Below, piece after piece: positions 3-39,726 of a stretch of DNA of 44,137 nt. Below the pieces are notes generated by a model, which saw nothing but the letters and a program-made list of their open reading frames with translations, had not been told where the DNA came from and did no database searches. Source of the DNA: Deltaproteobacteria bacterium (GTDB lineage: Bacteria; Desulfobacterota; UBA8473). The translations under genes were made by a program, and so were the position numbers. Each line of letters begins with the position of its first letter. Positions within the stretch are counted from its first letter, which is position 1. Where the stretch lies: assembly GCA_003599365.1 (NCBI GenBank), contig QZJR01000098.1, forward strand, positions 1-44,137, in the 5' to 3' direction.

Positions 3-1553
3 GTCGTATTCATCTTTCTCATTGCTCTTTCCTACGTGTCCTATACCGGACTTTCAAATCAGAAAATGGCAATAGAGGACATCGTTAACAACCGATTTAA
101 GGCATACCAGAGAAGCTCTGAGATTGCCAAAAGCATTGCCAATGTACATGCAAATCTTTACAAGATCATCAGTTGGACAGGTGCAAATCGTGATGCGGAT
201 ATAATCCAGGCTCTCTCCGATGAACAGAAAGCCCAGATTAAAGGGAATATTGAGCCGATACAAAATATCTTAAAATTTAAGATGTCCACAGGGAAGGAAA
301 AGAAGCTTCTTCAAGCCTCTCTGGAACAGTTGATAGAGTATCAGAAACAGGCATTAGCGGTATGTGATGTGGTAAAGACCGATGTCAGCATGGCAACTAT
401 GTTTATGGGCACTGCCGACGAAAAATACAACATCCTCAACCAAACCCTGAGGGAACTCCTCGTATTCGAAGAGATGGTCAGTGAAGAGAGGTACAATTTT
501 TCTCTCAAAAGCTTCAACTCTGTATTAACCGTCTTTGTAATATTGCTGGTAATCGCCGTTGTAATATCGGTATTGAGCAGCCTCTTTATGTCCAGGCTTA
601 TCACCCAACCGGTTAAACAAACAATGGATGTCATCAAAAATGTTGCCGATGGTGATTTAACTCAGGATATTGAAGTGGACTCCCGAGATGAGATCGGTGA
701 ACTTGCAGAGGCTATCAACACGATGCGCGTGAAAATGGGAGAGGCAGTCGGTCAATCGGTAGCAATTTCCCACACCTTATCCGAATCAGCATCCGAGCAG
801 GCTGCTTCGCTGGAGGAGACATCTGCCTCTCTGGATGAAACAGCCTCTATGACCAGGCAAAACGCCGGCAATACAACCGAGGCCAATAACCTGATGGCGT
901 TGGCCATGGAGACCACGGAAAAGGCCAATATTTCCATGGCTGATTTAACCAGATCAATGAAGGAAATTGCCGGTGCCAGCGAACAGGCACAGAAAATCGT
1001 TAAGAGTATTGATGAAATTGCCTTTCAAACCAATCTTCTTGCTCTGAATGCGGCAGTCGAGGCAGCCCGTGCGGGTGAAGCAGGCGCGGGTTTTGCCGTA
1101 GTTGCCGACGAGGTGAGGAATCTGGCGCTACGGGCAACGGAGGCCGCCAAAGGCACATCCGGTTTAATAGAAGATATCGTCAAAAAGGTCAGGAACGGGG
1201 AAGGTCTGGTTTCCCTCACCAACGATGCCTTCAGTCAGGTAACGACCAACTCCACAAAGGTTGTGGAATTAATGGGCGAGGTTGCAGCAGCCTCTCAGGA
1301 ACAAGCCCAGGGAATAGATCAGATCAATAAGGCCGTGGCTCAGATGAGTACGGTGACACAGAAGAATGCTGCCAGTTCAGAAGAATTAGCCTCAATCATG
1401 TCTATGTTTAAAACAGAGAATCATAGAGGGAAGATTACCCCAGAGAAGCTACACCCCCAAAAGAGCAGCAGAAAAAAAATGATCTTTTCGTCCCCCGGTG
1501 GAGAAGTAATCCCCGGGAATTTTATGCCCTTAAAAGAACCGGAGTTCGTTTAA
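3..1553 (+). CDS. methyl-accepting chemotaxis protein, 5'-partial
   Basis: The frame of the 36..1553 ORF stays open back to nt 3 and encodes a hydrophobic stretch (VVFIFLIALSYV), so the true start is probably off-window. Second TM at VLTVFVILLVIAVVISVLSSLF. HAMP-like DEIGELAEAINTMRVKM. Conserved MCP signalling hairpin IAFQTNLLALNAAVEAARAGEAGAGFAVVADEVRNLA. Confidence 0.92.
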   Translation, partial: VVFIFLIALSYVSYTGLSNQKMAIEDIVNNRFKAYQRSSEIAKSIANVHANLYKIISWTGANRDADIIQALSDEQKAQIKGNIEPIQNILKFKMSTGKEKKLLQASLEQLIEYQKQALAVCDVVKTDVSMATMFMGTADEKYNILNQTLRELLVFEEMVSEERYNFSLKSFNSVLTVFVILLVIAVVISVLSSLFMSRLITQPVKQTMDVIKNVADGDLTQDIEVDSRDEIGELAEAINTMRVKMGEAVGQSVAISHTLSESASEQAASLEETSASLDETASMTRQNAGNTTEANNLMALAMETTEKANISMADLTRSMKEIAGASEQAQKIVKSIDEIAFQTNLLALNAAVEAARAGEAGAGFAVVADEVRNLALRATEAAKGTSGLIEDIVKKVRNGEGLVSLTNDAFSQVTTNSTKVVELMGEVAAASQEQAQGIDQINKAVAQMSTVTQKNAASSEELASIMSMFKTENHRGKITPEKLHPQKSSRKKMIFSSPGGEVIPGNFMPLKEPEFV

Positions 1554-1616
1554 GCTTTATATAACAGCGGGCTTAAGCCTGCTGTTGTAATTACTGTGAA
1601 CCGTGAACTGTTACGG
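1554..1616. repeat. type C intergenic repeat, partial copy in reverse orientation, containing the 24-bp palindrome AACAGCGGGCTTAAGCCTGCTGTT (1563-1586)
   Basis: The reverse complement of 1554-1594 is identical to 25593-25633 (gtaattacaacagcaggcttaagcccgctgttatataaagc). It is followed by the heptamer pair gtgaacc/gtgaact. Confidence 0.9.
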
Positions 1617-3844: not shown

Positions 3845-3863
3845 TTCTTTAACTCTAAAATTC

Positions 3864-5083
<1,220 letters not shown>

Positions 5084-15907: not shown

Positions 15908-15928
15908 TTTAACCTATGAAGAAAAATT

Positions 15929-16152
15929 CTAACTACTCAGGTTCAAAGTTCCAAGGTTCACGGTTCACGGTTGATGCATTCGTAAAAAGTCGAAAAAATC
16001 CCTCTCCCTAACCCTCCCCCGTCAAGGGGGAGGGGATTTCGGACTTTTTACGAGTTCATCAAGGTTAGAGAGCGATGAACACAGACCAGTATGAAGATAA
16101 GGCAACCAACTGTGAACCTTGAACCCTGAACCTGACAACCTAGCGTAGTTAC
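15929..16152. repeat. type A MITE-like element with a nested type E element (15973-16060)
   Basis: Outer ends are CTAACTACTCAGGTTCAAAGTTCCAAGGTTCACGG and CCTAGCGTAGTTAC. The inner element is bounded by gatgcattcgtaaaaagtcg and cggactttttacgagttcatc around a C-rich/G-rich hairpin (ccctctccctaaccctccccc gtcaa gggggaggggatt). The outer sequence on both sides of the insert aligns with the uninterrupted copy at 3864-3993. Confidence 0.9.
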
Positions 16153-16155
16153 GTT

Positions 16156-23287: not shown

Positions 23288-23976
23288 GAAAGAGACGAAA
23301 GGTGGAGGATCATGACAATGCAGATAGGTGGGTTATATCATATGCGGACTTCATTACCCTTCTTTTTGCATTTTTCACAACCCTGTATGCCATCAGTAAT
23401 GTGGATTCAGGCAAGCTCAAGATGTTTGCAGGATCGATGAAGTCTGCCTTTAAGACAACGGGGACGGATAATTCTGCCGGTACCACCATTATAGAAGGCA
23501 TCAAACCTATAAATTATGCAGATGTTAGGCTTGAAAAGGATATCAGGATAACATTTGAAAAATTTGGTAAGCTGGAGGGAATTAGTATCTCAAGAGATGA
23601 AAGAGGCGTCTCAATATCCTTTGGAGATTCTGTTCTTTTTGATACAGGTTCAGCAGTGATTAAGGATGAAGCAGAACCGTTGCTCTTATCAGTAATATCT
23701 GTTATAAAGAGGACACAAAACAATATAATAGTTGAGGGACACACAGATAATATACCTATAAAGTCTAAATACCTTTCAAACTGGGAATTATCCACAGCAA
23801 GGGCTGCCGGTGTCCTTATGTATATTCTGAAAGAAAATAATAACATGAGCCCGGAAAGATTTTCCACCTCAGGATATGCGGAATATCGTCCGGTTACATC
23901 CAATGTGACCCCTGAAGGAAGGGCAAAAAACAGGAGGGTAGATATAGTATTTGTCAGCAACAGATATGGTAGCTAA
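23284..23976 (+). CDS. motB: flagellar stator protein MotB, set 1 (OmpA-like C-terminus)
   Basis: 230 aa. RWVISYADFITLLFAFF contains the conserved channel Asp. The peptidoglycan-binding domain has GHTDN, NWELSTARA and NRRVDIV. Confidence 0.9.
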   Translation: MRKRRKVEDHDNADRWVISYADFITLLFAFFTTLYAISNVDSGKLKMFAGSMKSAFKTTGTDNSAGTTIIEGIKPINYADVRLEKDIRITFEKFGKLEGISISRDERGVSISFGDSVLFDTGSAVIKDEAEPLLLSVISVIKRTQNNIIVEGHTDNIPIKSKYLSNWELSTARAAGVLMYILKENNNMSPERFSTSGYAEYRPVTSNVTPEGRAKNRRVDIVFVSNRYGS

Positions 23977-25435
23977 AATACTCTTTATTGATGGCAGTCC
24001 TTTTGGCCATGATCTGATAAAGATGTCCTTCAGCAGGCATCCGACGGATTATCATCTGGAATTCGTATCTACAGCAAAGGAAGGGTTTGAAGTCATCAAA
24101 AGGGAACAGGTAAAGTGCATTTTTGTCAGTCAGGAACTCCCTGACATGGATGGATTTGAATTCCTAAAAGAAGTTAAGATGCTGAAGATTCAGGCGCCCG
24201 TGATTATGATGGCAATAGATGAAGCCAAAATGGTAGTTGCTGAGGCGCTGGAGAAAGGCGCAGAGGATTGTGTGACCAAGAGCCTAAAAACCTTCAGGGC
24301 ATTTCCTTCCATATCTGAGCGTTCCCTTTTCAGATATAGACATAAACTAAGCAGTGAGAGGACCAAGAGAGATAAGTTCATTATCCAACGTCAGAAACAG
24401 TGGAGGGCAATTATCGACGCCATAACAGACTTTATTTTTGTGATAGACGACGATTACAGGTTAAGGAGGGTAAATAGTGCACTCGCAAAAGTCTTAGGTA
24501 TGCATCCAAAGGAACTTGTAGGCAAGAGATGCAGCGACTTAGATAACATCATAGATGTACCTGATGAACGCTGCCTAAAAGATGTTATAAAGGATGGCAC
24601 TCCATATATTTATGAAAAAAACATAGGTAACGATACATATCAGATAAGTATATTCCCTCTGTATGACGATGATAGGCCCATGACAATTCATGTAATGAAA
24701 AATATCACCGAAATGAAGAGATTAAAGGAGCAATTATATCATTCCTATAAACTCGCATCCCTGGGTCTTCTGGTCTCAGGGGTTGCCCATGAGATTAACA
24801 ACCCGCTAACAGGAATAATCGCCTATACAGAGCTTCTCGGGATGAGTGTCGTGGATGAAGAGACCGGTAAGAAATTAAAAAAGATAATGTACAGCGCTGA
24901 GCGGTGTAAGAAGATTGTCGAAAACTTGCTTACATTCTCGAGGCAGAAAAACCCATCAAAGAGCCTTGAGTCAATGAATGATATTATTGATAGGATCGTA
25001 GATTTCAGGGGGTACTGGCTTGGAGTAAATAACATCGTGATCGAGAAGGATTATGATGTTATTTCTACTGTCCTTGTCGACTCACAGCAGATTCAGCAGG
25101 TAATCCTCAATATCCTTCTCAATGCCGAACATGCGATAGTTGACTCTAATGTAGATAATGGAAGAATTAAATTTACCACAAGGTATGATCGGGACAATCG
25201 TAAGATAATAATAAAGATTTCTGACAATGGTCCCGGAATCCCACAAAATATAATCTCGAGCATATTCGATCCATTCTTCACCACAAAGCCTGCCGGCACC
25301 GGAACAGGATTGGGCCTTTCCATATCCCACGGTATAATTGTTGAACATGAAGGCAACATAATGGTTGAAAGTTCTGAAGGAAAAGGCACTACCTTCTTTA
25401 TAGAGATTCCTTTAGCTAAGTGCTCTGGACCATAA
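23951..25435 (+). CDS. sensor histidine kinase with degenerate N-terminal receiver, PAS, HisKA and HATPase domains
   Basis: 494 aa (TTG at 23951 or ATG at 23966). PAS (WRAIIDAITDFIFVIDDDYRLRRVN), H-box HEINNPLTGI, G-boxes DNGPGI and GTGTGLGLS. Confidence 0.88.
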   Translation: MSATDMVAKILFIDGSPFGHDLIKMSFSRHPTDYHLEFVSTAKEGFEVIKREQVKCIFVSQELPDMDGFEFLKEVKMLKIQAPVIMMAIDEAKMVVAEALEKGAEDCVTKSLKTFRAFPSISERSLFRYRHKLSSERTKRDKFIIQRQKQWRAIIDAITDFIFVIDDDYRLRRVNSALAKVLGMHPKELVGKRCSDLDNIIDVPDERCLKDVIKDGTPYIYEKNIGNDTYQISIFPLYDDDRPMTIHVMKNITEMKRLKEQLYHSYKLASLGLLVSGVAHEINNPLTGIIAYTELLGMSVVDEETGKKLKKIMYSAERCKKIVENLLTFSRQKNPSKSLESMNDIIDRIVDFRGYWLGVNNIVIEKDYDVISTVLVDSQQIQQVILNILLNAEHAIVDSNVDNGRIKFTTRYDRDNRKIIIKISDNGPGIPQNIISSIFDPFFTTKPAGTGTGLGLSISHGIIVEHEGNIMVESSEGKGTTFFIEIPLAKCSGP

Positions 25436-25458: not shown

Positions 25459-25509
25459 CACCCCCACCCAAACCCTCCCCCTTGAAGGGGGAGGGTTTGG
25501 GTGGGGGTG
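25459..25509. repeat. perfect 23-bp stem / 5-nt loop hairpin (type E core)
   Basis: cacccccacccaaaccctccccc ttgaa gggggagggtttgggtgggggtg. It is related to the C-rich/G-rich cores at 16001-16037 and 32271-32350. Confidence 0.9.
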
Positions 25510-25558: not shown

Positions 25559-25682
25559 GTAACCGTTAACGGTTCTCAGTTTGCAGTTTACGGTAATTAC
25601 AACAGCAGGCTTAAGCCCGCTGTTATATAAAGCTTGAAGCATTTTTGCCAACTGTTAACTGCAAACCGTGAACTGTGAACGG
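25559..25682. repeat. type C intergenic repeat, full copy
   Basis: gtaaccgttaacgg...gtaattacAACAGCAGGCTTAAGCCCGCTGTTatataaagcttgaagcatttttgccaactgttaactgcaaaccgtgaactgtgaacgg. It is near-identical to 39537-39696 and to the reverse complement of 32807-32937. Confidence 0.92.
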
Positions 25683-25725
25683 ATAACAAATAGCCTGGAG
25701 GAGTAAATGTGGAGAGGTATTCATT

Positions 25726-29569: not shown

Positions 29570-30859
29570 TTATCTCTTCAGATTCACAAGTTCCTGCATC
29601 AGTTCATCAGTTGTAGTTATTACCCTCGAATTTGCCTGAAATCCCCTTTGTGCAGAAATCATCTTCACAAATTCTTCTGCGAGGTCAACATTGCTGAGCT
29701 CAAGGTTATTCGAAAGAATTCTGCCAAGACCTGATGTGCCTGCCTTACCAACAATTGGTATGCCTGAATCAAAGGACTCTGCATAAAGGTTTCTCCCGAG
29801 CTTTGTCAAGCTTGCCGGTGCAACAAATCTTGCCGGTGCAATCTGTCCTATTCCCCTTGTCTGGCCATTGGTGAAGGCCCCTGTTATTATCCCCTCCTCT
29901 GAAATAGCCATGTTCTTCAAAGACCCGGATGAATAACCATTCTGACTTATGTTCATAACGGTAAAATCCGATGCAAACTGCGTTGTGCCATCAAATCCAT
30001 CACCAACCGGAGTTTCACCCGTACCTGTTCCGTAGTTAAACTCTATAGTCTGCGGAGTGGTTACGGAAGCCCCAAAATTGAAATTTATTGCTGTTCCGCT
30101 GTTGTCGTTAATAAGCGCACCACCTGTATTGAATGTTAGGGATTGGGTGCCGGCATCAACAAGCAATGAAGAATCAGCAGGGTCCTGATGAACATAATGG
30201 ACATCCCATGCGTTATCGCCGGTCTTAATAAAATATAATGTTACCTGATGAGCTCCCCCCTGAGAGTCGTATACGGAAATAGTTGTAGAAGAATTATAAT
30301 TAGCAGGATCGTTATCGACGGTATCCCCATTTCCATCCAATGTAAAAGCAGCAGATGGAACAGCAGCAGATGCCTTTAAATTTACTGCGATGTCCGAACT
30401 GCTTGTTATATTGGCCGGGCTTTGCCTGCTTGTTATCTGCAAATTGCCTATGGTTCCGGTTATATTTCCAGATGCATCGGCGAGATACCCCTGAAGGGCC
30501 AAACCATCGGGATTTACAATATTTCCGTCTTTGTTAAGGGAAAACTGGCCGGCTCGAGTGTAATGTCTTGTACCGTCTTCGCTAACAATAAAGAACCCGT
30601 CTCCATCAATAGCAAGGTCAAGGGCACTTGCCGTAGTCTCAAATGATCCCTGTGTAAAGACAGGTGATGTCTCGCTTATAAACACTCCACGACCTACCTG
30701 TAATGAACCACCAACAATGCCGCTCAATACATCCCCAAAAGATATCCTGCTTCCCTTAAACCCTACGGTATTCATGTTCGCAATATTGTCTCCGATAACG
30801 GAAAGGGATGTACCATTTGCATTCATACCACTTATTGCCGCAAAAAGTGATGTTAACAT
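29570..30859 (-). CDS. flgE: flagellar hook protein FlgE
   Basis: 429 aa. N-terminus LFAAISGMNANGTSLSVIGDNIANMNTVGFK and C-terminus LELSNVDLAEEFVKMISAQRGFQANSRVITTTDELMQELVNL are typical of hook and rod family proteins. Confidence 0.93.
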   Translation of the reverse strand: MLTSLFAAISGMNANGTSLSVIGDNIANMNTVGFKGSRISFGDVLSGIVGGSLQVGRGVFISETSPVFTQGSFETTASALDLAIDGDGFFIVSEDGTRHYTRAGQFSLNKDGNIVNPDGLALQGYLADASGNITGTIGNLQITSRQSPANITSSSDIAVNLKASAAVPSAAFTLDGNGDTVDNDPANYNSSTTISVYDSQGGAHQVTLYFIKTGDNAWDVHYVHQDPADSSLLVDAGTQSLTFNTGGALINDNSGTAINFNFGASVTTPQTIEFNYGTGTGETPVGDGFDGTTQFASDFTVMNISQNGYSSGSLKNMAISEEGIITGAFTNGQTRGIGQIAPARFVAPASLTKLGRNLYAESFDSGIPIVGKAGTSGLGRILSNNLELSNVDLAEEFVKMISAQRGFQANSRVITTTDELMQELVNLKR

Positions 30860-30872
30860 CTACTGTCTCCTT

Positions 30873-31241
30873 TCAAATATTTCCGTATAGTTCTTTAATT
30901 TCCCCAAGGGGGAACTTCTTGCCATTGTCCAATACAAGATAGGTAATGCTATTTTCAAAATTAACCCCGGCAACCTTTCCTGTGCTGCCATCCTGTGTCG
31001 TAACGTTCCTTCCCATGAGATTTATGGCCATGCTGTTGTTAAGTGAGCTTTGATATGTAAGCAGCTCTTCAATCTTTTTATTCATGTTGAATAACTGCTC
31101 GAGAGAACTGAACTGTGCAAGTTGTGCTGTAAATTCCGCACCTTGCACAGGGTTAAGTGGATCCTGGTACCTTAGTTGAGAGGTAAAAAGCTTCAGAAAA
31201 TCATCCTTTCCTAATGTCTTTCCAACAGTTGAAATGTCCAT
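30873..31241 (-). CDS. flgD: flagellar hook assembly (cap) protein FlgD
   Basis: The start is moved to the ATG at 31241 (MDISTVGKTLGKDDFLKLFTSQLRYQDPLNP), preceded by GGAGG. The longer ORF-track start lies in a repeat. Confidence 0.88.
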   Translation of the reverse strand: MDISTVGKTLGKDDFLKLFTSQLRYQDPLNPVQGAEFTAQLAQFSSLEQLFNMNKKIEELLTYQSSLNNSMAINLMGRNVTTQDGSTGKVAGVNFENSITYLVLDNGKKFPLGEIKELYGNI

Positions 31242-31258
31242 ATCTTTCCTCCTTTTCC

Positions 31259-31370
31259 GACTTAGGTTCAAAGTTCCGGGGTTCACGGTTCAACGGTTTA
31301 AGATAATTATTAAGCATTTCACTCAAACCTCTGAACCCGTGAACCTTGAACCCTAAACCTGAATAGTTAC
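31259..31370. repeat. type A hairpin element (left end truncated), right end CCTGAATAGTTAC
   Basis: cttaggttcaaagttccggggttcacggttcaacgg ... cccgtgaaccttgaaccctaaacctgaatagttac. Confidence 0.88.
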
Positions 31371-31387
31371 GAATTTTCTCACGCGAT

Positions 31388-32722
31388 TTAGACAAAAATA
31401 CTTACTCCTTTCATATCCCAATAAGAAATCGGTAATTGTATTTCTTTCCTTGAGTGTGGTGCTTCTGAATCTTCTTCCCCGACATTATCCTCTGCTTCAT
31501 TTCTTTTATCTTTAAGGGACACTGAAAAACTTCCTACGTTGAGTCCTTCATTATTAAGTGTATTCAGGATATTATGGAGATTGTTGACAATCAATTCCTT
31601 CCCGATGGTATCTGATACATTTATATGTGCATTGATCATACCTTTGTCCAGGGTTAGCTCGATATGGAGCTTTCCCAGACTCTTGGTTCCGAGGAAAACA
31701 TCTATCGAGGCATCATCTTTTTTCGTTATAATGAACGCATTCCCAGGAATGTAGGTAGATTCCGGCGATTCTTTTATAGGTTGAGCAAATTTGACATTAT
31801 TCGAGTTAGCGGTGTTATCAAAATTTGGGAATATGTTCCCCGGTTTTATGTCGATCTCTGCTGTATGTGAACCGGCATCTTTCCCTTTGCCTGCTGCCGG
31901 CTGTTCAAGCGCTGTGAATTTGTCTAATTCAAATAAGACCTCGCTTACAGGTGATTTTAATGTCTGAAAATCTTTTATAATAGAAAAATTATTTGGAATA
32001 TCTATTTCACTGCCGAGTGTATACAGGGTGTTGTGGAGATTATTGACAATCGAATCTTTGCCCATGGCCTCCGGCGCTTTTATCTGTGCATTGATCATAC
32101 CTTTGTCCGGGGCTAGCTCGATATGGAGCTTTCCCAGACTCTTGGTTCCGAGGAAAACATCTATCGAGGCATTATCTTTTTTCGTTATAATGAACGCATT
32201 CTCAGGAATGTAGGTAGATTCCGGCGATTCTTTTATAGGTTGAACAAATTTGATAGACTCGTAAAAAGTCCAATCTCCCCTCCCCTTGTGGGAGGGGATG
32301 AAGGGGAGGGCACCCTCACCCCAACCCTCTCCCATCGAGGGAGAGGGATTTTTTCGACTTTTTACAACTTCATCAAATTTGACATCATTCGAATCAGCAG
32401 CGTTATCAAAATTTGGGAAAATGTTCCCCTGTTTTATGCCGATCTCTGCTGTACATGAACCGGCATCCTTCCCTTTGCCCGCTGTTGGCTGTCCTGCTGT
32501 TTCAGGCAGACTGCTGCCCTCCGCTGATATATCCTGATCTCCTGACTGGAACGTTGAAATGGATAAAATAGATGTATTGCCCTGTAATAAGTTTAATATG
32601 GCGGCCATCAGGCAATCAAAAGACTCGCTGTTGGATTGCGCCATATCCGGTTTGACACTTTGAACTGCCAATGACTTTATCCCACCGGTTATTTTAGACT
32701 CTATTGGCATTAAGATATCCAT
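31388..32722 (-). CDS. fliK: flagellar hook-length control protein FliK-like, with tandemly duplicated C-terminal domain
   Basis: 444 aa, in the fliK position (fliJ-ylxF-fliK-flgD-flgE). The C-terminal Flg_hook-like segment (LGKLHIELTLDKGMINAHINVSDTIGKELIVNNLHNILNTLNNEGLNVGSFSV) is present twice. Confidence 0.75.
   Translation of the reverse strand: MDILMPIESKITGGIKSLAVQSVKPDMAQSNSESFDCLMAAILNLLQGNTSILSISTFQSGDQDISAEGSSLPETAGQPTAGKGKDAGSCTAEIGIKQGNIFPNFDNAADSNDVKFDEVVKSRKNPSPSMGEGWGEGALPFIPSHKGRGDWTFYESIKFVQPIKESPESTYIPENAFIITKKDNASIDVFLGTKSLGKLHIELAPDKGMINAQIKAPEAMGKDSIVNNLHNTLYTLGSEIDIPNNFSIIKDFQTLKSPVSEVLFELDKFTALEQPAAGKGKDAGSHTAEIDIKPGNIFPNFDNTANSNNVKFAQPIKESPESTYIPGNAFIITKKDDASIDVFLGTKSLGKLHIELTLDKGMINAHINVSDTIGKELIVNNLHNILNTLNNEGLNVGSFSVSLKDKRNEAEDNVGEEDSEAPHSRKEIQLPISYWDMKGVSIFV
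32254..32374. repeat. type E MITE-like element inserted in frame in fliK
   Basis: Ends gatagactcgtaaaaagtcc and cgactttttacaacttcatc form an inverted repeat. The core is C-rich/G-rich hairpins. AAATTTGA flanks it on both sides (32246-32253 and 32375-32382). Confidence 0.88.
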
Positions 32723-32752: not shown

Positions 32753-32806
32753 GGTAATCTACTAATAACCAAATTCCCAGCAACGATAATCAAGCAGTCT
32801 TCGTAT

Positions 32807-32937
32807 CCGTTCACAGTTCACGGTTTGCAGTTAACAGTTGGCAAAAATGCTTCAAGCTTATATAACAGCAAGCTTAAGCTTGCTGTTATAATGCCTGCTG
32901 TTGTAATTGCCGTAAACTGAGAACCGTTAACGGTTAC
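32807..32937. repeat. type C intergenic repeat, reverse orientation, with a perfect 24-bp palindrome (32864-32887)
   Basis: ccgttcacagttcacggtttgcagttaacagttggcaaaaatgcttcaagcttatatAACAGCAAGCTTAAGCTTGCTGTTata...gtaattgccgtaaactgagaaccgttaacggttac. Confidence 0.92.
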
Positions 32938-33037
32938 CGGTCTTCTTAATGAGCTATTATCGGGGGGACAAAGTTCCGAAAGGTTCTTGCATGTTTACAA
33001 GATGGGACGTTAAAAAGTATTTTGCAGTGAAAATATT

Positions 33038-33541
33038 TCATTTGGTAGGAAATTTTTTCTCAAAATTTATCATGCCCTCGGTTACAGATACGACCTTTTT
33101 TCTATCCATATATGCCATCACGGCGCCAACCTTTTTGGGCTTCATCTTGAGGATAATCTTTACTGCCGTAGGTTGATTAATAGCGGAGAGCGCTGCCGCC
33201 GCCTCTTCCGGCGGCATTGATTCATATGATTTAACCAAACGGTCAAGTTTTTCGTTACTAATTTGCTCTACCTTCCCGAGTACATCTTTGAACCGGTCTA
33301 AAAGCTTCGTATATTTCTGTATCCTCTCATCAACATCCTTTCTAATGGCATTAAGTCTTTCTTCCTCCTTTTTAAGGGTTGCCTCTTTCTCTTTAATCTC
33401 TTTGTGCCTCTTATTTATGAACTTTACCATGTCGTCCTGGGCATGAACAAAACCGGTGAAAAGTGAATAATGTACAGTGAGCAATAAAAAGACAATGAGA
33501 AACAAAAAAAATTTCTTATTAACCGTGAACCGTTTTTTCAT
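33038..33541 (-). CDS. MotE / YlxF-like flagellar protein (MgtE_N-like C-terminus)
   Basis: 167 aa. N-terminal TM or signal sequence, a coiled coil, then PPEEAAAALSAINQPTAVKIILKMKPKKVGAVMAYM. Occupies the ylxF position between fliJ and fliK, as in Bacillus-type fla operons. Confidence 0.65.
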   Translation of the reverse strand: MKKRFTVNKKFFLFLIVFLLLTVHYSLFTGFVHAQDDMVKFINKRHKEIKEKEATLKKEEERLNAIRKDVDERIQKYTKLLDRFKDVLGKVEQISNEKLDRLVKSYESMPPEEAAAALSAINQPTAVKIILKMKPKKVGAVMAYMDRKKVVSVTEGMINFEKKFPTK

Positions 33542-33978
33542 TTCCTCGATTTCCTCGAAAGAAAGTTAAAATCTATCTCTTTCTGCTCGCCAAGTAATGC
33601 CTCCTTTGCTTCCTTATTAAGAATCTTATCATTGAGGATTTCAAAGAGTCGGGTTTCTTTATACGCCTCCAACATAGCCTCTTGTTTCGCTTGAAGCTCT
33701 GAGAGCTGCCTAAGAACAACCTCTCTTTGCTCTTCTATCTGCTTGCCTATATACGAAAAATAGTCGTAAAAAAGCTCTATTTCTCGAATATTTGAGGATC
33801 CATTACCCTGCATGCTGTTAAATTCCACAACAGTATTTTTAAATACGCCTTCGAGAGAATCGAGCCTTGACTTCTCTACACCAAGTTTATCTTTGGTTTT
33901 CTTGACCTCAACCTCGATTTGTTCTTTTGTGAACCCCTTTAATTCCAATACCTTTGATACCATCATTTGTCGGGTCAT
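33538..33978 (-). CDS. fliJ: flagellar export chaperone FliJ
   Basis: 146 aa, all-helical coiled coil, immediately downstream of fliI. Start and stop overlap the neighbouring genes. Confidence 0.8.
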   Translation of the reverse strand: MTRQMMVSKVLELKGFTKEQIEVEVKKTKDKLGVEKSRLDSLEGVFKNTVVEFNSMQGNGSSNIREIELFYDYFSYIGKQIEEQREVVLRQLSELQAKQEAMLEAYKETRLFEILNDKILNKEAKEALLGEQKEIDFNFLSRKSRK

Positions 33979-35306
33979 TTCTCAGTTCCCATCTCATCAA
34001 ATATAAGATACAGTGCATGGAGACTATCCGCGATGTCCCGCCTTTCATTCATGTCCTGTCTAAGGTACATCTTAAGTCTGTCAATCATCCCGAGGGCATA
34101 ATCCACTTTTGGATTCGACCCCTCTTTGTAAGCACCTAGATTAATCATATCCTCAAATCTTTTATATATGGCTAGGGCCTCAATAAATTTAGATGAATAC
34201 TCTCTGTGTCTTGAATCCACTATATCCGGCATCACCCTGCTTATACTCCTTAAGAGATCTATCGAGGGGTAATGATTTTCCATTGCCAGTTCTCTGGACA
34301 AAACAATATGTCCATCAAGGACAGCAATCGCAGCATCTGCCACAGGGTCTGACAGGTCATCTCCGTCTACAAGGACTGTGTATATGCCTGTAATGCTCCC
34401 GCTGCCCTCCGATGTGCCAACCCGTTCGAGCAACTTTGGTAAGAGTGCAAAAACGGATGGTGTGTATCCTTTAGATGTTGGAGGCTCTCCTACAGCAAGC
34501 CCTATTTCACGCTGTGCTTGAGCAACACGGGTAAGGGAATCCATCAGGAGAAGTACATTCTCTCCTCTGTTCCTGAAATACTCTGCAATGGCTGTTGCAG
34601 CTAAGGCACCCCTCACCTTTGCGAGGGGCGGCTGGTCTGAGGTTGATACAACAACAATGGATTTTCCCATTCCCTCCTCTCCGAGGTCTTTTTCTATGAA
34701 TTCCCTGACCTCCCTTCCCCTTTCACCTATCAGTGCAATGACATTCACCGATGCCTCTGTGTATCTTGCCATCATCCCGAGCAGGACGCTCTTACCCACA
34801 CCAGCTCCGGACATAATACCTATCCTCTGTCCCTTCCCGCATGTGAGAAGTCCATTAATCGCCCTTATGCCAAGGTCTATGGGCTCTGATATCCTGTGTC
34901 TTCTCAAAGGATTAGGTGTCGAGGAAAACAGAGAATAGTTAACCCCTCTCAGAGGTCCCTTTCCATCTATAGGTTCACCCCTGTCATTAATGACCCTCCC
35001 CATCAGGGATGGCGAAACCTTCACAAAGATATTATTGCCAATAGGGATAACCCTGCTTCCCGGTCCTATGCCCGTGAGGTCGCCAACAGCCATAAGCAGT
35101 ACCTTCTCATCCCCGAAACCCACGACTTCTGCATCTATAGGACAATCAGTCCCTGACAATATCTTACATGATTCACCTATGCTCGTTTTAATACCTGTTG
35201 CCTTGATAATGATCCCCGTAATCTCCACCACTCTGCCGTATACTTTTAAGGGTTCTGTTTCCAGAGCTGCTTTTATATAAGGGGATAGATCAATCGCTGG
35301 AGTCAT
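33975..35306 (-). CDS. fliI: flagellum-specific ATPase FliI
   Basis: 443 aa. Walker A GAGVGKS, Walker B LLLMDSLTR, and F1/T3SS ATPase-like sequence throughout. Confidence 0.96.
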   Translation of the reverse strand: MTPAIDLSPYIKAALETEPLKVYGRVVEITGIIIKATGIKTSIGESCKILSGTDCPIDAEVVGFGDEKVLLMAVGDLTGIGPGSRVIPIGNNIFVKVSPSLMGRVINDRGEPIDGKGPLRGVNYSLFSSTPNPLRRHRISEPIDLGIRAINGLLTCGKGQRIGIMSGAGVGKSVLLGMMARYTEASVNVIALIGERGREVREFIEKDLGEEGMGKSIVVVSTSDQPPLAKVRGALAATAIAEYFRNRGENVLLLMDSLTRVAQAQREIGLAVGEPPTSKGYTPSVFALLPKLLERVGTSEGSGSITGIYTVLVDGDDLSDPVADAAIAVLDGHIVLSRELAMENHYPSIDLLRSISRVMPDIVDSRHREYSSKFIEALAIYKRFEDMINLGAYKEGSNPKVDYALGMIDRLKMYLRQDMNERRDIADSLHALYLIFDEMGTEK

Positions 35307-39536: not shown

Positions 39537-39696
39537 GTAACCGTTCACGGTTCTCAGCCTGCCCTGGCGCGAGCGCTGCGGTCTGGGCCAGGGTTTACAG
39601 TTCACGGTAATTACAACAGCAGGCTTAAGCCCGCTGTTATATAAAGCTTGAAGCATTTTTGCCAACTGTTAACTGCAAACCGTAAACTGTGAACGG
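39537..39696. repeat. type C intergenic repeat with a 36-nt GC-rich insertion (39558-39593) and a 24-bp palindrome (39615-39638)
   Basis: Aligns with 25559-25682 except for the inserted cctgccctggcgcgagcgctgcggtctgggccaggg. Confidence 0.92.
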
Positions 39697-39726
39697 ATAC
39701 GTTATTTGTTATCACCCTGCATTTTT

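What the first reader, a model, noticed from the sequence alone, without database searches (positions are those of the whole stretch)
32246..32382. MITE-like element inserted in frame into one FliK repeat, flanked by an AAATTTGA duplication
The downstream repeat copy reads ...gagcAAATTTGAcatt... at 31787-31794 and is uninterrupted. The upstream copy has AAATTTGA (32246-32253), then a 121-nt element, then AAATTTGA again (32375-32382).

The element has inverted ends (gatagactcgtaaaaagtc / gactttttacaacttcatc) and a C-rich/G-rich hairpin core. A sister copy sits nested in another repeat at 15973-16060.

Element plus duplication total 129 nt, which adds exactly 43 codons (DEVVKSRKNPSPSMGEGWGEGALPFIPSHKGRGDWTFYESIKF) without a stop.

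The empty and filled sites lie side by side in one gene. This is direct evidence of mobility and of exonisation of a repeat into a flagellar protein.
Basis: seen in the sequence. Interest (0 to 1): 0.7.

Follow-up and report, generated by a model that had tools for sequence, protein, structure and literature searches.

The report
Small transposon inserted in-frame in fliK
A 125-base non-coding mobile element, from a family spread through sulfate-reducing Desulfobacterota, has landed in frame in the poorly conserved "ruler" part of the flagellar hook-length gene fliK, adding 43 amino acids without breaking the gene; this is a clear but not unprecedented case of selfish DNA becoming protein sequence.

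Summary
fliK (31388-32722, minus strand, 444 aa) has an internal tandem repeat. Its N-terminal copy carries a 129-nt insertion that the second copy lacks, and the FliK orthologues of two related genomes lack it too.

The insert is a MITE-like element with 20-nt ends TGATAGACTCGTAAAAAGTC / GACTTTTTACAACTTCATCA and a core of two G/C-rich hairpins.

Scans found at least 113 distinct copies on 96 contigs, nearly all Desulfobacterota. The consensus end is TGATGnnnTCGTAAAAAGTC, and the cores are often unrelated. Of these copies, 66 have an exact 4-bp flanking duplication, against 3 expected by chance. In about 95% of those 66, the repeat extends to 6 bp (A-NNNN-T).

A 155-nt subfamily sits almost unchanged at 10 or more different sites, each with its own duplication. 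That indicates recent mobility.

The filled allele occurs in three assemblies, 100% and 99.6% identical to each other. It lies where FliK evolves almost neutrally (pN/pS about 0.9-1.0).

Only 1 of 114 copies is inside a gene.

No transposase was found, and translation of the insert is unproven.

Verdict: a new member of a known kind, of moderate interest.

The parts
31388..32722 (-). fliK, flagellar hook-length control gene (444 aa), host of the insertion. It lies in a flagellar cluster with flgE (29570-30859), flgD (30873-31286), fliJ (33538-33978) and a 33975-35306 ORF whose L003 counterpart hits ATP-synt_ab/T3SS_ATPase_C (FliI-type ATPase).
   Evidence: Pfam Flg_hook PF02120, E = 7.6e-15, at aa 340-408. 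The neighbouring ORFs hit FlgD, FlgE and FliJ families. The syntenic cluster in L003 is annotated the same way.
32251..32375 (.). The inserted element, end to end (125 nt; 123 nt at 32252-32374 if the outermost T and A belong to the duplication).
   Evidence: Gap in the alignment with the paralogous copy and with orthologues. The boundaries are set by 113 family members.
32251..32270 (+). Left terminal inverted repeat, TGATAGACTCGTAAAAAGTC.
   Evidence: Matches the family consensus TGATGnnnTCGTAAAAAGTC.
32356..32375 (-). Right terminal inverted repeat, GACTTTTTACAACTTCATCA (reverse complement TGATGAAGTTGTAAAAAGTC).
32247..32250 (.). Left copy of the target-site duplication: core AATT (6-bp reading AAATTT = 32246-32251; full 9-nt direct repeat = 32245-32253).
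32376..32379 (.). Right copy of the target-site duplication: core AATT (6-bp reading = 32375-32380; 9-nt repeat = 32374-32382).
32276..32298 (.). Core hairpin 1 (CCCCTCCCC / GGGAGGGG).
   Evidence: Minimum-free-energy structures.
32325..32347 (+). Core hairpin 2, CCCTCTCCC-ATCGA-GGGAGAGGG, followed by ATTTTTT. It is terminator-like on the plus strand only, which is antisense to fliK.
   Evidence: Terminator scan; exact pattern match with 0 expected by chance.
31786..31794 (.). Uninterrupted ('empty') paralogous site, CAAATTTGA, in the second FliK repeat.
32016..32492 (-). N-terminal copy of the intragenic tandem repeat (aa ~78-236). It holds the insertion and a degenerate partial Flg_hook domain.
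   Evidence: Weak Flg_hook match, E = 0.006, profile positions 10-58 of 85.
31557..31904 (-). C-terminal copy of the intragenic repeat (aa ~274-389). It overlaps most of the Flg_hook match (aa 340-408), which continues past the end of the repeat.
15972..16061 (.). Sister copy: short 90-nt form with one hairpin, intergenic, nested in another repeat family. Duplication CGGT/AGGT, with one mismatch.

Best explanation
A non-autonomous DNA transposon (a MITE) of a family found across Desulfobacterota inserted into the N-terminal copy of the fliK internal repeat. This happened after the lineage split from its closest sampled relatives.

The family is defined by a conserved 20-nt terminal inverted repeat, TGATGnnnTCGTAAAAAGTC. 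This repeat is most likely the binding site of a transposase supplied in trans. The core between the ends is interchangeable hairpin DNA.

Insertion follows a staggered cut at an A-NNNN-T target (here AAATTT). That leaves a 4-bp duplication, or 6 bp if the outer A and T are counted.

The fliK copy survived for three reasons:
- Element plus duplication is 129 nt, a multiple of three.
- The only reading frame that passes through the leading end repeat is the frame in use, and the core has no stop in it.
- The element landed in the part of FliK where length and frame matter but sequence hardly does. In FliK this is the secreted, flexible ruler or linker upstream of the conserved C-terminal switch domain.

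The expected product is a FliK that is 43 residues longer, with a Gly/Pro/Ser-rich segment.

Shown here: the insertion event, the family, the duplication, recent mobility of the subfamily, and relaxed constraint at the site. Inferred: the transposase type (cut-and-paste DDE), translation of the insert, and continued function of FliK.
For: Insertion event:
- There is a 129-nt gap against the paralogous copy.
- P0002 and P0003 lack exactly residues 115-157.
- Their DNA reads GTCAAATTTGCTC at the site.
- Synonymous divergence is 0.146 between window and L004 and 0.25 between window and L003. L003 is about 94% identical over the flagellar cluster.

Not an artefact:
- The exact 444-aa protein is on two JGI metagenome contigs. 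NCBI also holds a cluster representative (P0001, 440 aa) that is 100% identical over 99% of the query and carries the insert.
- L001 is 100% identical and L002 99.56% identical to the window, and both are filled.

Family:
- There are 113 distinct paired copies of 61-351 nt on 96 contigs.
- Cores are unrelated between subfamilies while the ends are conserved.
- TIR positions 1-5 and 9-20 are 78-100% conserved. Variable positions 6-8 show no left/right covariation, with observed identity of 0.40/0.32/0.37 against 0.44/0.31/0.37 expected. The ends are therefore kept as sequence, not as a stem.

Duplication:
- An exact 4-bp duplication occurs in 66 of 113 copies, against 3.0 expected.
- It extends one base each way in 63/66 and 64/66 copies, but not further (28/66 and 25/66).

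Recent mobility: the 155-nt subfamily is almost identical at 10 or more different sites, each with its own duplication.

Tolerance:
- pN/pS is 0.85-1.0 in the N-terminus and in repeat copy 1, against 0.10-0.40 in copy 2 and the C-terminus.
- Engineered Salmonella FliK of 363-785 residues stays secreted and functional, with 0.2 nm of hook per inserted residue (PMC6126814).

Orientation: the hairpin-plus-T-run terminator signal lies on the antisense strand.
Against: - No transposase gene and no long element bounded by the same ends was found in about 1.5 Mb of flanking DNA. The mobilising enzyme is therefore hypothetical.
- The duplication length is ambiguous (4 or 6 bp), so no IS family can be assigned.
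- There is no direct evidence that the insert is translated or that this FliK works. The two filled strains differ by one synonymous base in fliK, which is too little to show purifying selection since the insertion.
- A very stable RNA structure (-78.7 kcal/mol) now sits inside the coding region and could impair expression.
- The AlphaFold model was uninformative (mean pLDDT 30). Disorder at the site rests on sequence composition and on what is known of FliK.
Confidence: 0.85

Rival explanations
1. The 129 nt are ancestral to the repeat copy. They were lost precisely in the relatives, and in the second repeat copy, by recombination or slippage between the flanking 9-nt direct repeats.
For: A 9-nt perfect direct repeat is a plausible substrate for precise deletion.
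Against: - It needs at least three independent precise losses: L004 copy 1, L003 copy 1, and copy 2 in all three genomes.
- The segment is a member of a dispersed family that has its own duplications at over 100 unrelated sites.
- Its GC content is 52%, against 42% for the window.
Confidence: 0.04
2. The insertion is real but fliK is now crippled: a young, slightly deleterious or pseudogenising hit that has not yet been purged. The 43 codons are then not meaningfully 'exonised'.
For: - The insertion is very young. The duplication is perfect, and the element shows no differences between the two filled strains.
- An extremely stable hairpin sits in the mRNA.
- Only 1 of 114 family copies lies in a gene, so intragenic hits are normally removed.
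Against: - The frame is intact over 444 codons, with a conserved N-terminus and C-terminal domain.
- The allele is the only one seen, in three assemblies and at least two strain variants.
- FliK tolerates much larger insertions experimentally.
- The site is under relaxed sequence constraint.
Confidence: 0.15
3. The repeat is not a transposon but a structured RNA or regulatory palindrome of the REP/BIME or terminator type, spread by recombination or by a REP-associated tyrosine transposase.
For: - It has G/C-rich hairpins, one with a T-run.
- A bare hairpin with the same motif stands alone at 25459-25509.
- The core hairpin motif recurs in plasmids of unrelated bacteria.
- No DDE transposase was found.
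Against: - It has 20-nt terminal inverted repeats with target duplications at 58-72% of copies, which REPs lack.
- The ends show no compensatory change.
- There is no GTAG or CGTC head.
- No Rfam family reaches its threshold.
- Cores are interchangeable while the ends are fixed.
Confidence: 0.06
4. Assembly chimera: a repeat collapsed into fliK by the assembler.
For: The genome is full of short dispersed repeats, which are a classic cause of mis-joins.
Against: - The same junctions appear in independent assemblies of different samples, including a 99.56% variant.
- The insert is in frame, is bounded by a perfect duplication, and sits exactly at the family's preferred target.
Confidence: 0.02

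Closest known systems
Prokaryotic MITEs in general (e.g. Correia/NEMIS of Neisseria, Chunjie of Geobacter uraniireducens, Nezha of cyanobacteria, QMITE1/2 of Coxiella)
   Same: - Size of 60-350 nt, with terminal inverted repeats and a short target duplication.
- No coding capacity for a transposase.
- Many dispersed, mostly intergenic copies, with size variants and truncated forms.
- A strongly folding transcript.

The comparison uses, and the review PMC10969869.
   Different: - The end sequence TGATGnnnTCGTAAAAAGTC did not occur in any paper of the searchable library.
- The duplication is 4-6 bp at A-NNNN-T rather than TA.
- The ends are conserved across several orders of a phylum while the cores are swapped.
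- No parent IS is known.
Rickettsia palindromic elements (RPE; Ogata et al. 2000, 2002)
   Same: A palindromic repeat of ~100-150 nt is inserted in frame into a protein-coding gene, adding 30-50 residues without destroying it. The fliK copy has an open frame on both strands.
   Different: RPEs are frequently intragenic: nearly half of the 44 in R. conorii. Here only 1 of 114 copies is intragenic, and 66 of 114 copies have no open frame at all. Coding compatibility is therefore an accident of this copy, not a family trait. The sequence family and the host phylum are also unrelated.
IS3 / IS21 / IS481-type DDE insertion sequences (retroviral-integrase-like)
   Same: If the outer T and A belong to the element, the termini are 5'-TG...CA-3' with a short duplication. 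Some subfamilies carry a second subterminal copy of the end motif, as IS21-type ends do. New copies tend to insert next to existing ends (tandem copies sharing a duplication). These family properties come from my own knowledge and were not checked against ISfinder.
   Different: No such IS with these ends was found. If the duplication is 6 bp, the termini are GA...TC and this resemblance weakens.
Engineered FliK ruler insertions in Salmonella
   Same: Extra residues inserted upstream of the C-terminal switch domain of FliK; such variants remain secreted and functional, and they lengthen the hook by 0.2 nm per residue (PMC6126814).
   Different: This is a natural insertion of transposon-derived, probably unstructured sequence, in a FliK that already carries a natural partial domain duplication. 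Hook length has not been measured.

Membership tests
MITE (non-autonomous class II element) | Small size, no transposase ORF | tested here: met
   The fliK copy is 125 nt; family members are 61-351 nt. No ORF larger than the element itself.
MITE (non-autonomous class II element) | Terminal inverted repeats conserved among copies | tested here: met
   A 20-nt consensus, with 17 positions 78-100% conserved over 188 ends.
MITE (non-autonomous class II element) | Target-site duplication that differs from copy to copy | tested here: met
   An exact 4-bp duplication in 66/113 copies against 3.0 expected; it extends to 6 bp (A-NNNN-T) in about 95% of those.
MITE (non-autonomous class II element) | Multiple dispersed copies, with filled and empty sites between relatives | tested here: met
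   113 distinct copies on 96 contigs. A 155-nt subfamily sits at 10 or more sites. fliK is filled in the window and empty in L003 and L004.
MITE (non-autonomous class II element) | A related autonomous IS with the same ends that supplies the transposase | tested here: inconclusive
   None was found among long-range end pairs, next to solo ends, or in viral contigs. Whole genomes could not be searched.
Rickettsia palindromic elements (RPE) | Members are habitually inserted in frame in ORFs and encode a conserved peptide | tested here: not met
   Only 1 of 114 copies is spanned by a gene, and 66 of 114 have no open frame. The peptide matches no Pfam or NCBIfam family, and a database search found a single 63-aa hit.
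REP/BIME with RAYT | A 20-40-nt palindrome with a GTAG or CGTC head, no terminal inverted repeats, no target duplication | tested here: not met
   The element has long TIRs plus duplications and no GTAG or CGTC head in the consensus.
IS200/IS605-derived palindrome elements (PATE) | Subterminal hairpins, no TIR, no duplication, insertion 3' of a fixed tetra- or pentanucleotide | tested here: not met
   TIRs and duplications are present. An early resemblance of the flank to TTGAT dissolved once more copies were seen.
Correia / NEMIS | 26-nt TIR, TA duplication, IHF site | tested here: not met
   The end sequence is different and the duplication is 4-6 bp. I saw no consistent IHF consensus on reading the end and flank sequences; this was an inspection, not a dedicated scan.
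FliK (host gene) | C-terminal Flg_hook (T3S4) domain, position between fliJ and flgD/flgE in the flagellar cluster | tested here: met
   PF02120, E = 7.6e-15, at aa 340-408. Neighbours are FliJ, FlgD and FlgE.
Any Rfam RNA family | Score at or above the family gathering threshold | tested here: not met
   0 hits at gathering threshold over the whole window. The best sub-threshold hit is 25 bits against a threshold of 100.

The most novel reading that the evidence does not exclude
The 20-nt end sequence is conserved across several orders of Desulfobacterota while the cores are freely exchanged, and no IS carrying these ends turned up. The elements may therefore be mobilised by a so far unrecognised transposase, perhaps single-copy and host-maintained, rather than by an ordinary multicopy IS. 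That relationship would resemble REPs and their RAYT.

In addition, the fliK insertion may be a natural ruler extension that lengthens the hook by roughly 8-9 nm (43 residues at 0.2 nm each). If so, it would be a phenotype created by a MITE.
Probability: 0.15. Interest if true: 0.65.

Novelty: new member of a known kind. Interest (0 to 1): 0.42.

Why it matters
This is an unusually clean natural case of a bacterial MITE becoming part of a protein. Empty sites are available both in the same gene and in close relatives.

The host protein's length is thought to set a physical dimension of the flagellum. That gives a measurable prediction: a longer hook in the filled strain.

The work also defines an apparently undescribed MITE superfamily that is abundant in Desulfobacterota, up to about one end-repeat match per kilobase (roughly one element per 2-3 kb) on some contigs. 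Such repeats are likely to fragment assemblies and to create false N-terminal extensions in gene calls, as in P0004 and P0005. The transposase of this superfamily is still to be found.

In-frame MITE insertions as such are already known, for example from Rickettsia RPE, ERIC and Coxiella QMITE1.

Tried and rejected
- **Rfam.** No family reached its gathering threshold over the window. A permissive scan of the element gave only weak, generic hairpin matches.
- **IS200/IS605-like insertion 3' of TTGAT.** I suspected this from the first seven copies. It was rejected once 94-113 copies showed true TIRs and duplications.
- **Right flank always a stop-like TRR triplet.** This appeared in the first copies but not in the larger set: position +5 is T in 86%, and +6 is mixed.
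- **TIRs as a selected stem.** No left/right covariation was found at the variable positions.
- **Search for the parent IS.** Long-range end pairs of 0.4-4 kb enclosed only ordinary genes: PIN/antitoxin, recA, cobalamin adenosyltransferase, peptidyl-tRNA hydrolase and a gas-vesicle cluster. Clustering ORFs next to 97 solo ends gave only histidine kinases, sigma-54 activators and ABC proteins. The IstB-like gene at the edge of L005 has no matching end nearby. Viral contigs gave 10 hits and nothing useful.
- **Plasmid BLAST.** Only the core hairpin matched, in unrelated bacteria.
- **AlphaFold on FliK with a 4-sequence alignment.** Mean pLDDT was 30, so the model was unusable and no fold search was done.
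- **Peptide search with the 45-aa insert.** One 63-aa hit, uninformative.
- **Literature.** The end sequence is in no paper of the library. The Chunjie paper (PMC2516098) is not held, so its ends could not be compared.
- **Selection since the insertion.** The two filled strains differ by one synonymous site in fliK, so there is no statistical power.
Full report
**What is in the sequence**

The region lies in a flagellar gene cluster on the minus strand:
- flgE at 29570-30859
- flgD at 30873-31286
- a 444-codon ORF at 31388-32722
- fliJ at 33538-33978, followed by ORFs whose counterparts in a related genome are annotated as the export ATPase, FliH and FliG

The 444-aa ORF is FliK, with Pfam Flg_hook at E = 7.6e-15 over aa 340-408.

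The gene contains an internal tandem repeat: nt 31557-31904 against nt 32016-32492. The start-to-start spacing jumps from 459 to 588 nt within it. Aligning the two copies gives one clean 129-column gap.

The extra DNA is flanked by a perfect 9-nt direct repeat, CAAATTTGA, at 32245-32253 and 32374-32382. The uninterrupted copy has this sequence once, at 31786-31794.

The insert keeps the frame and adds 43 codons without a stop.

Its ends are inverted repeats. Its core holds two G/C-rich hairpins, and it folds far better than shuffled sequence:
- plus strand: -70.1 kcal/mol, z = -7.2
- mRNA strand: -78.7 kcal/mol, z = -8.3

A second, shorter copy of 90 nt with one hairpin lies at 15972-16061.

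**It is an insertion, not an artefact**

A protein search returned two FliK orthologues:
- P0002: 397 aa, from an ENA metagenome
- P0003: 387 aa, from the Desulfobacterales MAG GCA_016209225.1

Both align end to end with the window protein and lack exactly residues 115-157. Their DNA reads ...GATGTCAAATTTGCTC... at the site.

Both orthologues also carry the internal repeat, so the repeat is older than the insertion.

Synonymous divergence is as follows:

| Pair | pS |
|---|---|
| window vs L004 | 0.146 |
| window vs L003 | 0.25 |
| L004 vs L003 | 0.27 |

L003 is about 94% identical to the window across the flagellar cluster. A single gain on the window's branch is the parsimonious reading.

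The filled allele is on two further contigs from different JGI samples. One is 100% identical over 3199 nt. The other is 99.56% identical, with 9 mismatches in 2045 nt. NCBI also holds a cluster representative, P0001 (440 aa), which is 100% identical over 99% of the query and carries the insert. A chimeric assembly is therefore very unlikely.

**The element belongs to a large family defined by its ends**

The same protein search also returned two unrelated proteins: P0004, with SPOR/DPBB domains, and P0005, a metallo-beta-lactamase fold. Both begin with the same peptide. Their DNA showed full elements just upstream of the real genes.

More copies in these loci share the ends but have completely different cores.

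Almost all are Desulfobacterota, and a few are labelled only as 'bacterium' or as another phylum. The named taxa include Desulfobacteraceae, Desulfobulbia, Syntrophaceae, Desulfatiglans, Desulfosarcina cetonica and Desulfogranum marinum.

After removing duplicates there are 113 complete, distinct copies on 96 contigs. They are 61-351 nt long, with modes at 135 and 152-158 nt.

Over 188 ends, 17 of the 20 positions are 78-100% conserved. At the three variable positions the left and right ends of one element agree no more often than shuffled pairs do. The ends are therefore conserved as a sequence, as a protein-binding site would be, and not as a stem.

Other forms also exist:
- minimal forms with ends only, e.g. 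44 nt in L096 and 30-nt hairpins in L022, L037 and L089
- a subfamily with a second subterminal copy of the end motif

**Target duplication**

Taking the element as TGATG...CATCA gives these counts:
- 66 of 113 copies have an exact 4-bp duplication, against 3.0 expected from shuffling the right flanks.
- 81 of 113 have at most one mismatch, against 18 expected.

Among the 66 exact cases the direct repeat extends one base outward on each side in 63 and 64 cases (A on the left, T on the right). It extends no further: 28 and 25 of 66.

In four of five informative copies whose 'first base' is not T, that base covaries with the right flank. This favours a true 6-bp duplication at an A-NNNN-T target, with element ends GATG...CATC. 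Sequence alone cannot separate that from a 4-bp duplication with a strong flank preference.

For fliK the two readings are:

| Reading | Duplication | Element |
|---|---|---|
| 4 bp | AATT | 125 nt, 32251-32375 |
| 6 bp | AAATTT | 123 nt, 32252-32374 |

The rest of the 9-nt repeat (C...GA) consists of target bases that happen to equal the element's own terminal bases.

The sister copy at 15972 sits in another repeat family whose intact copy reads TTCA-AGGT-TAAC (3857-3907). The filled copy reads TTCA-CGGT-[element]-AGGT-TAG, so its duplication is AGGT with one later mismatch. A related metagenome contig, L164, has an element at the same point of the same outer repeat, followed by a second element that shares the duplication.

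**Recent mobility**

A metagenome scan for the fliK subfamily (GTAAAAAGTCRAAAAAATCCCTCTCCC) gave 43 contigs and 25 distinct sites.

A 155-nt form is almost identical at 10 or more different sites. Each has its own duplication: AAAA, TTCT, AATT, AAGT, ATTT, TTAT, ACCT and others.

Shorter 122-129-nt forms without the central spacer also occur elsewhere. The 125-nt fliK copy therefore need not have been trimmed after insertion.

Some contigs carry about one end-repeat match per kilobase, for example 9 hits in 9.7 kb of L146.

**Why fliK tolerates it**

The leading end repeat closes two of the three frames, through TGA at position 1 and TAA at position 12. Only the frame D-x-x-V-K-S passes, and this is the frame used in fliK (read directly from the sequence).

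Element plus duplication is a multiple of three in only 43 of 113 copies. In addition, 66 of 114 copies have no open frame at all, and the fliK copy is the only one of 114 spanned by a long ORF. Coding compatibility is therefore a property of this survivor, not of the family. This is unlike Rickettsia RPEs.

The site lies in the poorly constrained part of FliK:

| Region | pN/pS |
|---|---|
| N-terminus | 0.46-1.01 (1.01 and 0.74 for the two comparisons with the window) |
| Repeat copy 1, downstream of the insertion | 0.85-0.94 |
| Repeat copy 2 | 0.10-0.40 |
| C-terminus | 0.25 |

Copy 1 retains only a weak, partial Flg_hook match (E = 0.006).

In Salmonella, engineered FliK variants of 363-785 residues remain secreted and functional, and the hook grows 0.2 nm per inserted residue (PMC6126814). 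By analogy, 43 residues would predict a hook roughly 8-9 nm longer. This is an inference, not a result.

The element's hairpin-plus-T-run terminator signal (32325-32347, then ATTTTTT) lies on the plus strand, antisense to fliK. No terminator-like site was flagged inside the element in the sense direction.

**What remains open**

No transposase was found. The following searches all failed:
- Long-range pairs of ends enclose ordinary genes.
- ORFs next to 97 solo ends share only housekeeping or regulatory families.
- Viral contigs add nothing.

If the outer T and A are counted as part of the element, the termini are TG...CA with a short duplication. Together with the subterminal repeat in one subfamily and insertion next to existing ends, this points to a DDE enzyme of the IS3/IS21/IS481 kind. 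That is a resemblance drawn from general knowledge, not a tested membership.

Translation of the insert and function of the longer FliK are untested:
- The two filled strains differ by one synonymous base in fliK.
- The AlphaFold model was unusable, with mean pLDDT 30.
- The insert peptide matches no Pfam or NCBIfam family.

The core hairpin motif alone recurs in plasmids of Azospirillum, Klebsiella, Escherichia and others. It also stands bare at 25459-25509 in the window. Only the ends are specific to the family.

**Comparison with known systems and verdict**

The element meets every structural criterion of a MITE except a known autonomous partner.

It works like an RPE in this one gene, but it is not an RPE by sequence, by host or by habit. 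It is not a REP/RAYT element, not an IS200/IS605-type palindrome element, and not a Correia element.

In-frame MITE insertions in bacterial genes are documented for RPE, ERIC, BOX, QMITE1 and Anabaena MITEs. About 10% of prokaryotic MITEs are intragenic (PMC11602168).

The end sequence was not found in the searchable literature, so the family appears to be undescribed.

I rate this a new member of a known kind. Interest is moderate, owing to the clean filled-versus-empty evidence, the ruler protein as host, and the phylum-wide conservation of the ends without a known enzyme.

Noticed in passing
window 3857-3993 (plus partial duplicate to 4052), 15922-16155, 31247-31377: A second MITE-like family with ends GTAACTACTCAGGTTCAAAGTTCC...GGAACCTGA..AGTAGTTAC and GTGAACC-type internal repeats. 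One copy hosts the nested sister element. Another sits between flgD and fliK.
   Followed up: partly
window 1549-1610, 25577-25685, 32802-32946, 39593-39701: A third dispersed repeat of ~60-145 nt with a central palindrome, AACAGCrGGCTTAAGCCyGCTGTT. One copy lies just upstream of the fliK start, so fliK is flanked by two repeat families and interrupted by a third. The repeat is also present in L003.
   Followed up: no
window 25459-25509: A perfect palindrome with 25-nt arms (CACCCCCACCCAAACCCTCCCCCTT/AAGGGGGAGGGTTTGGGTGGGGGTG), 24 nt downstream of ORF 23951-25435. It has the same motif as the MITE core but no end repeats and no T-run. It looks like a free-standing hairpin module.
   Followed up: partly
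window 31557-31904 vs 32016-32492 (fliK aa ~78-236 and ~274-389): FliK itself carries a natural tandem duplication that includes part of the Flg_hook domain. It is shared with both orthologues. The N-terminal copy is decaying: pN/pS is about 0.9, and P0003 has a 25-residue gap plus a divergent stretch there in the alignment.
   Followed up: partly
L003 11677-11831 (GCA_016209225.1, between fliK and flgD): The relative that lacks the fliK insertion has a different-core member of the same end-repeat family 150 nt downstream of fliK, with duplication TATT.
   Followed up: no
L164 9113-9207 and 9212-9349; L086 2329-2487 and 2493-2627: Pairs of elements in tandem, separated only by the shared duplication (AGGT; ATTAT). 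This suggests preferential insertion next to an existing element end.
   Followed up: no
L096 545-588; L022 497-526; L037 ~4422-4451; L089 3-32; L046 ~2560-2587: Minimal forms: a 44-nt element made of ends only, and 25-30-nt hairpins such as TGATGAATTCGTAAAAAGTCGAATTCATCA. They may be internal-deletion products or excision remnants.
   Followed up: no
L037 2638/2664, L077 6961/6987, L043 5419/5444, L025, L068, L085, L110, L123: A subfamily with a second, direct copy of the end motif about 26 nt inside the left end (TGATG..TCGTAAAAAGTC CGAtTt AGACGGTTTCGTAAAAAGTT). It could provide two binding sites at one end.
   Followed up: no
P0004 (L005 10001-10807) and P0005 (L012 1456-2391): The gene callers started these proteins inside an upstream element. 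This gives SPOR/DPBB and metallo-beta-lactamase-fold proteins a spurious ~55-residue N-terminal extension. P0004 is recorded in 55 blocks of the collection.
   Followed up: partly
L166 1243 and 10161; L143 2669 and 11587: Two inward-facing end-repeat matches 8.9 kb apart enclose a gas-vesicle-like gene cluster (GvpN-like AAA protein, GvpL/F-like, ArsA-like). This could be chance or a composite unit.
   Followed up: no
Plasmid records H7/H8 (Azospirillum lipoferum 4B) and others: The core hairpin CCCTCTCCC..GGGAGAGGGTTGGGGTGAGGG matches intergenic DNA of Azospirillum, Klebsiella, Escherichia, Pantoea and Variovorax at 80-97% over ~40-50 nt. The motif is widespread or convergent and is not tied to the end repeats.
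   Followed up: no
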